DNA of 64,000 nucleotides, taken from assembly GCF_009914755.1 (NCBI RefSeq), contig NC_060940.1; one strand, given 5' to 3'. This document shows, in pieces, positions 25,185-41,872 of the stretch (within the stretch, counting starts at the first letter, position 1; every line of letters starts with the position of its first letter). Under the pieces are notes generated by a model. That model ran no database searches and had not been told where the DNA came from. It saw nothing but the letters and a program-made list of their open reading frames with translations. The translations under genes were made by a program, and so were the position numbers. The stretch is from the human T2T-CHM13v2.0 reference genome, Homo sapiens.

Positions 25185-25386
25185 TAGAATTTTAAATGAG
25201 ACAGTGTAGGTGAAACTGCTTAGAATAGTGCCTGGCTCATGGTAAGCACAAAATAAGTCTTCGTTGTTTTTTCTTCAAGTTTTATTAAACTTGAACTGAC
25301 GTGAAAGTCTAGGGTTGGGGGCACGAGGTGAAACTAGAAGGCAAAGCTGAAGAGGGAAGCACAGGGCGGTTCTTGAAGGGCCTTCT

Positions 25387-26892
25387 TTTTTTTTTTCAAA
25401 GAACAAAAATGTGATTGGGGTTATTTATTAGAAGAGCTCGCCAATTCATTTCATTTTTTTTTTTTTTAGTATTTATTGATCATTCTTGGGTGTTTCTCGG
25501 AGAGGGAGATTTGGCAGGGTCATAGGACAATAGTGGAGGGAAGGTCAGCAGATAAACATGAGAACAAGGGCCTCTGGTTTTCCTAGGCAGAGGACCCTGC
25601 GGCCTTCCGCAGCGTTTGTGTCCCTGGGTACTTGAGATTAGGGAGTGGTGATGACTCTTAACGAGCATGCTACCTTCAAGCATCTGTTTAACAAAGCACA
25701 TCTTGCACCGCCCTTAATCCATTTAACCAGGAGTGGACACAGCACATGTTTCAGAGAGCACGGGGTTGGGGGTGAGGTTATAGATTTAACAGCATCCCAA
25801 GGCAGAAGAATTTTTCTTAGTACAGAACAAAATGGAGTCTCCTATGTCTACTTCTTTCTACACAGACACAGTAACAATCTGATCTCTCTTTCTTTTCCCC
25901 ACATTTCTCCCTTTTCTATTCGACAAAACCGCCATCGTCATCATGGCCCGTTCTCAATGAGCTGTTGGGTACACCTCCCAAAAGGGGTGGCGGCCGGGCA
26001 GAGGGGCCCCTCACTTCCCAGACGGGGCGGCTGCCGGGGGGAGGGGCTCCTCACTTCTCAGGGCGGCCGGGCAGAGACGCTCCTTACCTCCCAGACGGGG
26101 TGGCGGTCTGGCAGAGACACTCCTCAGTTCCCAGACGGGGTCGCAGCCGGGCAGAGGCACTCCTCACATCCCAGACAGGGCCGCGGGGCAGAGGCGCTCC
26201 CCACATCTCAGACGACGGGCGACCGGGCAGAGACGCTCCTCACTTCCCAGACGGGATGGCGGCCGGGAAGAGGCGATCCTCACTTCCCAGACTGGGCGGC
26301 CGGGCAGAGGGGCTCCTCACATCCCAGACGATGGGCGGCCAGGCAGAGACGCTCCTCACTTCCCAGACGGGGTGGCGGCCGGGCAGAGGCTGCAATCTCG
26401 GCGCTTTGGGAGGCCAAGGCAGGCGGCTGGGAGGTGGAGGTTGTAGCTAGCCGAGATCACGCCACTGCACTCCAGCCTGGGCAACATTGAGCACTGAGTG
26501 AGCGAGACTCCGCCTGCAATCCCGGCACCTCAGGAGGCCGAGGCGGGCAGATCACTCGCGGTCAGGAGCTGGAGACCAGCCCGGCCAACACGGCAAAACT
26601 CGGTCTCCACCAAAAAATACAAAAACCAGTCAGGCGTGGCGGCACGCGCCTGCAATCCCAGGCACTGGGCAGGCTGAGGCAGGAGAATCAGGCAGGGAGG
26701 CTGCAGTGAGCCGAGATGGCGGCAGTACAGTCCACCTTGGGCTCGGCATCAGAGGGAGACCGTGGAAAGTGGGAGACAGAGACGGGGAGGGAGAGGGAAA
26801 CGGGGAGGGAGAGGGAGACGGGGAGGGAGAGGGAGACGGGGAGGGAGAGGGAGACGGGGAGGGAGAGGGAGAGAGGGAGAGAGGGAGAGGGC
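25387..26892 (-). mobile_element. Full-length SVA (older subfamily, SVA_A/B-like) with 3' transduction
   Basis: minus strand order: CCCTCT-type repeats (26751-26891), Alu-like domain (~26390-26750), GC-rich VNTR (~25980-26390), SINE-R (~25468-25975), poly-A, extra 57 bp, second poly-A; TSD AGGGCCTTCT at 25377-25386 and 26893-26902. Confidence 0.96.
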
Positions 26893-27577
26893 AGGGCCTT
26901 CTAATTCATGGTAAGAGGTTGGGACTTTTCTCCTGCAGGGGAATAAATCAATTTCAGGGAACCAAAGAGAAACTAGGAGTGAGGAAAGGCCCATGAAAGT
27001 CCTTGTTGAAAGAGCAAGCTCTTGGTGGTAAGTGTTCACCAAGTGCCTATGGTAGACAGACAGGTACAGGCTGGGAGACCTGAGCTTGAATAACTGCTCT
27101 GCCAAGGCAGGTGGGGACAAGTGGCATCACTTCTCTGGGCCTGCACCCTCAACTGAGATGGATTTTTTTCGGGGACTGAATGAGAGGGGGAAAGCCAGAT
27201 GCCTCCTTTCTGCGGTACCCAGCAGAAAGCATGGGTTTGATGTTGGCTGGTGCCTGTGCCCTCAGTCCACACATACATCTTGAGTGTAACAGCTTCAGAA
27301 TTCTTATTCTACTGCCTTCTCAGCCCTCTTTTTTACTGATATCTGGTGATTATGCAGGATGAACCTCCCCACATTCACCTACCCTAGTTAGAACCATGTT
27401 CTGGAGGCTGGACTCCCAACTGCAACTCCGTGTAGCCTGAGCTCTGTCCGGTCGGTGAGTGGTCTGTACATCTCCAGCATCTTACCCCAAACATAGTGAT
27501 TCTAACTTGATTCAGTGAAATATGCCAATTAGCACTTGTCTGGGAGAAAAGAGGTTCAAATCAAACAAGTTATGCTG

Positions 27578-39672: not shown

Positions 39673-40205
39673 TTATTACCTTGTGCATCTATTATTTTAA
39701 TAATACAGACCTTAAAAACAATGCAATTGACCAGGATGGAAGGAAACTAAAAAAAATAAAAATAAAAATAATACAAGACAATAAACAAGCACTACATTGT
39801 ATGATATAGTCAAGCAGTGCTGAGAAGGGCCTTCTGATGTTTTGAGGCCAGAGCACCTCTTTGCCCTGGCTACCAAACCATGTCACCAAGACCCACAGAA
39901 TGTCTAAAAGACCTTTTGGCTTTGAAATGTTTCTAGGACACAGGCTATAACCCACATTTTCCCTTAAACTATATTCCTAAAGTAGGCAATGGTATTTCTA
40001 AATCTCAGTTTTTCAGTACCATGGGGGAAGCACCAACAACTTTCAATGGTGCTAGGAGAGTCTTAAAGATGTCCCAACAGAATTATTTTTAATATATTTT
40101 ATGATTTAAACAGTTTATACTCATCAGCATTTGTAGACATTATGAGGCAAGGGGAATACAGAGGAGTATAGGAACCTGCATAAAATTTGATAAACAGTAG
40201 GATGT

Positions 40206-41003
<798 letters not shown>

Positions 41004-41872
41004 AGAGGTTTGCCATGGAATTAACAGAAGTCACCTTAAATTCAGGTCTTTTTCACACCTTGGACAAAACACACAGCTGAAGCAGGATGTCAGCTCACAA
41101 ATGTTCATTTACTTCACTCCACAAAAATATACACTAGGCTGAGTCCTGGAGATTCAGCGCACACCTTCAAGGACCCTTTAGGAGAGTAGACAGATTTTGT
41201 GAATTAAAATGGCAATTAATAGGGCCTTCTCCCTATTAAATGTATTCATAACATTTTGCACCCAATTTAGGAGGCTCCTGGGCCACCCCTAAAGCCCATC
41301 CTTGGAAGGATTCATGAACTTTTTGCTCTAAGAGTCTAAGAACTTAGGACCACCGTGTTTCTTATCACTTCCATGGATCCTAGGGCAAGGGTGCTTCTTG
41401 GGAAGCCAGCAGCCAGGAGACTCCTCTTGCAAGAAGATCCTGGAACATCTCTTCTGTTCACAGAGATATTCCAAGTGGAACCAAAGACAAGTCGAGCACC
41501 TTTGTTTACAGCTGAAGAAACTGGAAACCCAGAAAGGGGAAGTTTCACACAAGGTCTACTTCCTCATCCACTTAGAGATCACAATAACAATAGTCACAAT
41601 TGCTGCCTCAATGGAGTGCAGGGGAGTGGCAGTCACTCAAAGATCCTTCCAACACTCTGGCCTGGGCTTGATCATCCCTGTTCTCCAGAGTCAGAGAGGA
41701 CGAGTGGCTTGTCAGGTCACACAGCAGGAAGTAGCCCAGCTTGGCACAGAACTCAGTTCTGTGGAACTTCAAAGCAGGATGCCAACAGTTAAGAGGGCTA
41801 TAAAGGTGGCAGAGACACTGTCTTTGCCCTCATGAAGCTGGTAATCTTATTGGCTCTGGGGATGGGGCATTA

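What the first reader, a model, noticed from the sequence alone, without database searches (positions are those of the whole stretch)
25377..25467. SVA carries a 57 bp 3' transduction that barcodes its source element
Seen in sequence: the TSD AGGGCCTTCT (25377-25386, 26893-26902) encloses the SVA and its poly-A (T run 25454-25467), plus an extra non-SVA segment 25397-25453 and a second poly-A (25386-25396). On the element strand the segment reads TGAAATGAATTGGCGAGCTCTTCTAATAAATAACCCCAATCACATTTTTGTTCTTTG. It has its own AATAAA (25424-25429), 27 nt before the second tail. The target site reads TT/AGAA, a typical L1 endonuclease site. Established knowledge: SVA and L1 read through weak poly-A signals and mobilise 3' flanking DNA. 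Inference: the segment is the flank of a parental SVA elsewhere in the genome.
Basis: partly seen in the sequence, partly recalled or inferred. Interest (0 to 1): 0.7.

Follow-up and report, generated by a model that had tools for sequence, protein, structure and literature searches.

The report
Old SVA tagged by vanished parent
A jumping-gene copy on human chromosome 16 carries a 57-base piece of chromosome 6, which likely marks where its parent copy once sat before that parent was lost; this is an ordinary, well-described kind of event.

Summary
A full-length minus-strand SVA (25468-26892) is followed by A14, a 57-bp non-SVA tag with its own AATAAA 27 nt before a second tail (A10-11), all inside an exact 10-bp target-site duplication. 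The tag matches one other place in CHM13, chr6:158,509,783-158,509,839, at 56/57. It is therefore imported DNA, and the alternative 7-bp TSD is refuted. Homology starts exactly at TTT|AAATA, an L1-endonuclease-type site, so the parent most likely sat there and was lost. A published table lists what is very likely this element as SVA_B with a chimpanzee orthologue, so the event is probably older than the human-chimp split. Empty donors are usual here: 5 of 5 donors traced for 4 close relatives also lack an SVA, and SVA-free transduction origins are in print (PMC12593883). Verdict: a real, textbook SVA 3' transduction that barcodes a source locus, not a surviving source element. Low interest.

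The parts
26893..26902 (-). 5' copy of the 10-bp target-site duplication (AGAAGGCCCT on the element strand); first-strand nick site reads TTCT/AA on +
   Evidence: EN consensus 5'-YYYY/RR-3' per PMC4859970 passage
26892..26892 (-). single extra G before the first hexamer, likely copied from the RNA cap (marks a full-length insertion)
   Evidence: the same feature is attributed to capping in PMC6139936 Fig. 5 legend; inference for this copy
26771..26891 (-). SVA hexamer (CCCTCT-type) repeat region
   Evidence: (TRF periods 12 and 18)
26387..26747 (-). SVA Alu-like domain
   Evidence: Levy 2017 Data S1 sub-coordinates mapped with one offset; 69-85% matches to Alus
25972..26390 (-). short VNTR, about 11 units of about 40 bp
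25468..25964 (-). SINE-R, with the element's own AATAAA at 25472-25477
   Evidence: 96.2-97.3% identity to the 29 nearest fetched copies
25454..25467 (-). first poly-A (A14), inferred to be the parent's genomic tail; 25454-25458 align with the donor's AAATA (4/5)
25397..25453 (-). 57-bp transduced tag, 56/57 identical to G000:C6:158,509,783-158,509,839 (+)
25424..25429 (-). AATAAA within the tag, 27 nt before the second tail; also present at the chr6 donor
25387..25396 (-). second poly-A (A10; A11 with the first base of the TSD); the donor has only AAA here, so most of it is untemplated
25377..25386 (-). 3' copy of the 10-bp target-site duplication

Best explanation
This is a full-length SVA retrotransposon carrying 57 bases copied from chromosome 6, most likely a 3' transduction from a parent SVA that once sat at that chromosome 6 site and has since been lost. 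Shown: the anatomy, the unique chr6 match, the empty donor and the TTT|AAATA start. Inferred steps: (1) an SVA inserted at the TTT|AAATA endonuclease site at C6:158,509,777/8, with the start of the tag as its 3' TSD; (2) RNA polymerase II read through the SVA's own AATAAA and A-tail and used the AATAAA in the flank, cleaving at TTTG|AAA and adding a new tail; (3) L1 ORF2p nicked TTCT/AA on chr16 and copied the whole capped RNA, giving the 10-bp TSD and the 5' G; (4) the chr16 daughter became fixed, probably before the human-chimp split, while the parent allele never fixed and was lost by drift, selection or lineage sorting.
For: Two A-tracts plus a polyadenylation signal inside one TSD, the anatomy described for 3' transductions (PMC4859970 passages). 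Unique donor at 56/57. Donor homology ends 27-30 nt after AATAAA, where the donor has only AAA. Donor homology begins at TTT|AAATA; TT precedes only 10-14% of A3 run starts locally. No SVA within 7.8 kb upstream or 6.2 kb downstream of the donor. Levy 2017 lists hg19 chr16:48450093-48451548(-) as SVA_B with a panTro3 orthologue, and its sub-coordinates fit this element. Nearest fetched copies are 2.7-3.8% diverged. Control: 5 of 5 donors traced for 4 relatives are also SVA-free and 4 of 5 start after TT. Published lists show no SVA in the intervals that should hold the donor in hg19 and panTro3, and none on the + strand in gorGor3.
Against: The parent was not seen in any genome, so steps 1, 2 and 4 are inferred. 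No sibling carries the tag. The junction is imperfect: donor AAATA against daughter AAAAA needs one extra change. The chimp orthologue call is a liftover of the SINE region only and says nothing about the tag; gorGor3 was scored absent. The cross-species donor check rests on draft assemblies and recalled hg19 gene positions. Whether a cellular transcript ends at the chr6 AATAAA could not be checked.
Confidence: 0.8

Rival explanations
1. Same transduction, but the parent SVA still exists at the chr6 site as a rare human allele or in another great ape, and CHM13 simply carries the empty allele.
For: One haploid genome was examined directly. PMC12593883 (section 10) says unexplained origins may be lost or at low frequency.
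Against: The element is SVA_B with a chimp orthologue, too old for a likely human polymorphism. Levy's hg19, panTro3 and gorGor3 lists show no suitable SVA in the expected interval (draft assemblies, approximate conversion).
Confidence: 0.07
2. Template switch or RNA chimera: reverse transcription began on the poly-A of a cellular RNA ending at the chr6 AATAAA, copied about 60 nt, then jumped at the A-run onto an unrelated SVA RNA's tail. No SVA was ever on chr6.
For: The donor is empty. It lies about 98 kb downstream of the last ARID1B-family domain, on the same strand, so read-through RNA is possible. An A-run at the junction is expected under this model too.
Against: It does not predict the TT before the A-run, seen here and in 4 of 5 control donors against a 10-14% background (post hoc). 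One control has two tags in series, each SVA-free, which serial transduction explains simply. No annotation of a transcript end at the donor was available.
Confidence: 0.07
3. The parent was fixed and was later removed precisely by recombination between its two TSD copies, restoring an empty-looking site.
For: Precise loss leaves the same single-copy site as a never-filled allele. PMC6139936 names precise deletion as a less likely route.
Against: It is rare, and would have to have happened at all 6 donors examined and in several ape lineages.
Confidence: 0.05
4. The 57 bp are local chr16 flank, the true TSD is the 7-mer AATTCAT, or the tag and the SVA arrived in two separate insertions.
For: AATTCAT occurs at 25443-25449 and 26903-26909; chance about 0.4% within the tag.
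Against: The chr6 match runs straight through the 7-mer. That TSD would leave 10 unexplained nt at the 5' end and 4 at the 3' end. A nested second insertion would need its own TSD at the SVA 5' end, where there is only one G.
Confidence: 0.01

Closest known systems
SVA-mediated 3' transduction (Xing et al. 2006, not held here, recalled only; PMC4859970, PMC9311842, PMC12593883, passages read)
   Same: Full-length SVA, two A-tracts, downstream AATAAA, one enclosing TSD at an L1 endonuclease site, interchromosomal donor. The 57-bp length is near the 71-bp median for high-confidence polymorphic SVA transductions (PMC9311842 Table 3).
   Different: Nothing in mechanism. It is an old, probably fixed SVA_B rather than a polymorphic SVA_D-F1, and no parent or sibling survives in CHM13.
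Transductions with an SVA-free origin (lost source elements; PMC12593883 sections 9-10, PMC6139936 sections 5 and 7)
   Same: The origin can be mapped but the source SVA is absent, and loss from the population is inferred.
   Different: In young polymorphic SVAs a source was found for 84% of transduction-carrying insertions; among the old copies examined here, 0 of 6 donors had one.
SVA_B subfamily (Levy et al. 2017, PMC5640379 Data S1; age 11.56 Myr quoted in PMC4432496)
   Same: The record that maps onto this element is labelled SVA_B by RepeatMasker and by three community assignments.
   Different: The subfamily label was taken from the table; diagnostic positions were not scored here.
Orphan 3' transduction
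   Same: Non-repeat DNA moved by L1 machinery with a poly-A tail and TSD.
   Different: Here the SVA body is present in the daughter and it is the parent that is missing.

Membership tests
SVA retrotransposon | hexamer, Alu-like, VNTR, SINE-R, poly-A in order | tested here: met
SVA_B subfamily | subfamily-diagnostic substitutions in SINE-R | not tested
   label read from Levy 2017 Data S1 for the record whose coordinates fit this element; not scored against a consensus here
L1-mediated (TPRT) insertion | TSD of 4-20 bp abutting both ends | tested here: met
   10 bp, exact
L1-mediated (TPRT) insertion | nick at 5'-YYYY/RR-3' | tested here: met
   TTCT/AA (consensus)
3' transduction | non-element DNA between two A-tracts inside the TSD | tested here: met
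3' transduction | polyadenylation signal 10-40 nt before the second tail, which is untemplated | tested here: met
   AATAAA 27 nt upstream; the donor has only AAA
3' transduction | the extra DNA maps to another locus | tested here: met
   C6:158,509,783-839, 56/57
3' transduction | parent element directly upstream of the donor (needed to name a source element; often absent for old events) | tested here: not met
   no SVA in 14 kb around the donor in CHM13
3' transduction | tag begins at the parent's insertion site / 3' TSD | tested here: inconclusive
   begins at TTT|AAATA, an EN-type site, but without a filled allele the TSD cannot be seen
3' transduction | tag absent from the pre-insertion chr16 site in outgroups | not testable with these tools
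   no ape genomes are held (no relatives)
transduction family (several siblings sharing a tag) | other SVAs with the same tag | tested here: not met
   only chr16 and chr6 match; a third 23-mer hit with 2 mismatches on C13 does not extend

The most novel reading that the evidence does not exclude
This tag is one entry in a hidden map of extinct source elements: nearly all old (SVA_B-age) transductions point to empty endonuclease sites (6 of 6 donors here). The early SVA burst would then have been driven by many short-lived parents that never fixed, rather than by one long-lived master copy. Tracing every tag across T2T ape genomes could count those ghost parents and test whether active SVAs were purged by selection.
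Probability: 0.45. Interest if true: 0.4.

Novelty: new member of a known kind. Interest (0 to 1): 0.2.

Why it matters
On its own, little: 57 non-coding bases were duplicated, with no exon or known function. It does give the exact base on chr6 where an otherwise invisible active SVA probably sat millions of years ago. With the five control donors it bears on a published disagreement over one master SVA (PMC5640379) versus many sources (PMC6139936, section title and passages): five related old copies trace to six different, now empty, loci. It also warns that pipelines needing a parent element in the reference would miss such events.

Tried and rejected
Alternative 7-bp TSD: rejected. Reverse direction (chr16 to chr6): rejected, because the chr6 copy has no tail or TSD and runs on into unique DNA on both sides. 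Sibling search: an 81-nt DNA search, a 23-mer with 2 mismatches and a 981-nt donor search gave none; these searches skip very common words, so a very short sibling tag could be missed. C13 23-mer hit: does not extend, chance. Spliced link to a distant upstream SVA: unlikely, since the junction has no AG acceptor and abuts the poly-A; only 7.8 kb upstream was read directly, so an SVA further upstream in CHM13 is excluded only through the hg19 list. A naive longest-match TSD finder picked the wrong 10-mer for this element and gave no clear TSD for several relatives; those were not traced. Xing 2006, Hancks 2010, Szak 2003 and the journal version of Hoyt 2022 were not held, so whether this locus is in their lists is open; the Hoyt preprint supplements were not seen. 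Literature searches for this locus or for lost SVA sources gave 0 relevant papers.

Full report
1. Observation. The minus strand of 25377-26902 reads: TSD AGAAGGCCCT, one G, hexamer repeats (26771-26891), Alu-like domain, a short VNTR of about 11 x 40 bp (25972-26390), SINE-R ending in AATAAATACT, A14, the 57-bp segment, A10, and the TSD again. The TSD is exact and not extendable; chance is about 8e-7 at a fixed place and about 1e-4 with slack. The 10-mer also occurs twice elsewhere in the window, so its value lies in abutting both junctions. The nick site is TTCT/AA, matching the 5'-YYYY/RR-3' rule given in PMC4859970 (passages).

2. The donor. An 81-nt search of the whole genome gave 2 of 2 scored candidates: the window itself and C6:158,509,778-158,509,842, 63/65, E=3.9e-22. 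The 57-bp core is 56/57 identical. The mismatch is G on chr16 against A on chr6 at a CG, which I read as likely CpG decay on chr6 (inference). At the 3' end homology stops at TTTG|AAA, 27-30 nt after AATAAA; the donor goes on with GCAGC, so the second tail is untemplated. At the 5' end homology starts at GGTATTT|AAATA. A 981-nt donor search found only the same two places. A 23-mer with up to 2 mismatches found 3 places, and the third (C13) does not extend. So there are no siblings at this sensitivity.

3. The donor is empty. BLAST of the whole insertion against C6:158,502,000-158,516,000 found only ordinary Alu matches (69-85%) and the tag; no hexamer, VNTR or SINE-R. The site lies between a BAF250_C exon at C6:158,410,487-158,411,254 (+) and DUF1358 exons at C6:158,560,757-158,564,802 (-), which I take to be ARID1B and TMEM242 (names recalled). 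In Levy et al. 2017 (PMC5640379; I saw main-text passages and parts 1, 23, 24, 26 and three searches of Data S1), hg19 has no SVA between chr6:156,992,316 and 158,548,299. panTro3 has none between 158,495,525 and 159,936,219, anchored by shared elements at +1.34 to +1.42 Mb. gorGor3 has no plus-strand SVA between 156,365,652 and 158,812,111, and one minus-strand element at 158,585,554 (offset about +0.78 Mb, my inference from matching elements). Placing the donor inside these intervals uses recalled hg19 gene positions (about 157.6-157.7 Mb) and draft assemblies with gaps, so this is supporting evidence, not proof.

4. Subfamily and age. Data S1 lists hg19 chr16:48450093-48451548(-) as SVA_B, with an orthologue at panTro3 chr16:47384577-47386226 and none called in gorGor3 or ponAbe2. 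With the SINE-R end set at 25468, its Alu-like domain maps to 26387-26747, meeting the VNTR edge found here (26390); the 5' end differs by 14 nt. I infer it is this element. Orthology there is a liftover of the SINE region. SVA_B is dated to 11.56 Myr in PMC4432496 (passage). The 29 nearest fetched copies (of 1866 candidates, 40 scored, 30 fetched including self) are 96.2-97.3% identical over the SINE-R query, in keeping with an old insertion.

5. Control: is an empty donor surprising? Among those 29 relatives, 4 were picked out as carrying 3' transductions: three by a distant TSD (L019, L030, L040) and one by eye (L041). Several others had no clear TSD call and were not traced. Their donors are C14:64,608,637, C5:57,016,423, C3:136,268,800 and, for the two serial tags of L041, C1:110,201,314 and C23:147,998,985 (a second C23 paralogue was not checked). 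All 5 lack SVA VNTR/SINE-R sequence in the 1.5-2 kb read upstream. Four of 5 start after TT (TTT|AAA three times, ATT|AAG once) and one after TC. Locally TT precedes 10-14% of A3 run starts; 4 or more of 5 has probability 0.0005-0.0015 under that rate. This test is post hoc, two donors start with only AA, one start is an Alu tail, and in one the daughter's TTT may belong to the SVA tail. The subfamilies of the controls were not looked up. The pattern still says that for SVAs of this age an empty, endonuclease-like donor is usual.

6. Mechanism. Shown: anatomy, unique donor, empty donor, junction sequences. From established knowledge: SVA and L1 transcripts skip a weak AATAAA and use a downstream one, giving two A-tracts and carrying the source's 3' TSD (PMC4859970; PMC9311842 passages); an untemplated 5' G is attributed to capping (PMC6139936 section 7). 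Inferred: a parent SVA inserted at TTT|AAATA on chr6, was read through to the flank's AATAAA, and its RNA was copied into chr16; the daughter fixed and the parent did not (0.8). Rivals: parent still segregating (0.07), template switch from a cellular RNA (0.07), precise excision (0.05), local flank or alternative TSD (0.01). Against my reading: no parent seen, no sibling, one unexplained T/A difference at the junction, and no ape sequence examined directly.

7. What is known. 3' transduction by SVA is common: 127 3'-only plus 32 both-end cases among 543 non-reference SVAs (PMC12593883 passages), 748 of 7554 insertions (PMC10681720 passages), and 55 top-confidence SVA 3' events in CHM13 (bioRxiv 10.1101/2021.07.12.451456 passages; supplements not seen). 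SVA-free origins are described: sources were found for 84% of young transductions and the rest were taken as lost or rare (PMC12593883 section 10), and lost source elements are inferred in PMC6139936. I found no paper naming this locus, but Xing 2006, the survey most likely to list it, was not held.

8. Verdict. Real and correctly described; an ordinary member of a known class. The title should read 'barcodes its source locus', since the source element is gone. Interest 0.2. The one lead worth more is the wider pattern of 6 of 6 empty donors among old copies, which could be turned into a census of extinct source elements with T2T ape genomes.

Noticed in passing
L040:2051-2485 (G000:C18:48,019,974-48,020,408) and L045 (G000:C3:136,268,800-136,269,383): A related SVA carries a spliced 3' transduction: a 150-nt GT-AG intron (C3:136,268,915-136,269,064) is removed exactly in the daughter. 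The donor has no SVA and starts in an Alu tail.
   Followed up: partly
L041:2049-2315 (G000:C17:77,534,078 onward): A 5'-truncated SVA with two serial 3' transductions: about 56 bp from C1:110,201,259-314, then about 200 bp from C23:147,998,985 (or its paralogue at 147,935,804), each with its own A-tract; both checked donors are SVA-free.
   Followed up: partly
L019 (C18:3,205,987-3,206,557) and L030 (C16:82,555,023-82,555,738): Two more old SVAs with 570-720-bp 3' transductions from C14:64,608,637 and C5:57,016,423; both donors are empty at TTT|AAAAA sites.
   Followed up: yes
window 25476-26263: The RefSeq enhancer given in the hub's annotation lies wholly on this SVA's SINE-R and VNTR, inside an intron of LOC124907778 and about 29 kb upstream of SIAH1.
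   Followed up: no
window 25237-25246 and 26906-26915; 39826-39835 and 41221-41230: Other exact 10-mer repeats near or equal to the TSD that do not abut the junctions; taken as chance.
   Followed up: yes
L010 (G000:C12:62,981,238-62,981,540): An intronless DUF1358 (TMEM242-like) match with one stop codon, likely a processed pseudogene.
   Followed up: no
L045:1185-1515: An Alu with a clear TSD immediately upstream of the C3 donor start (the 14-nt motif after the A-run occurs twice, 314 nt apart).
   Followed up: no
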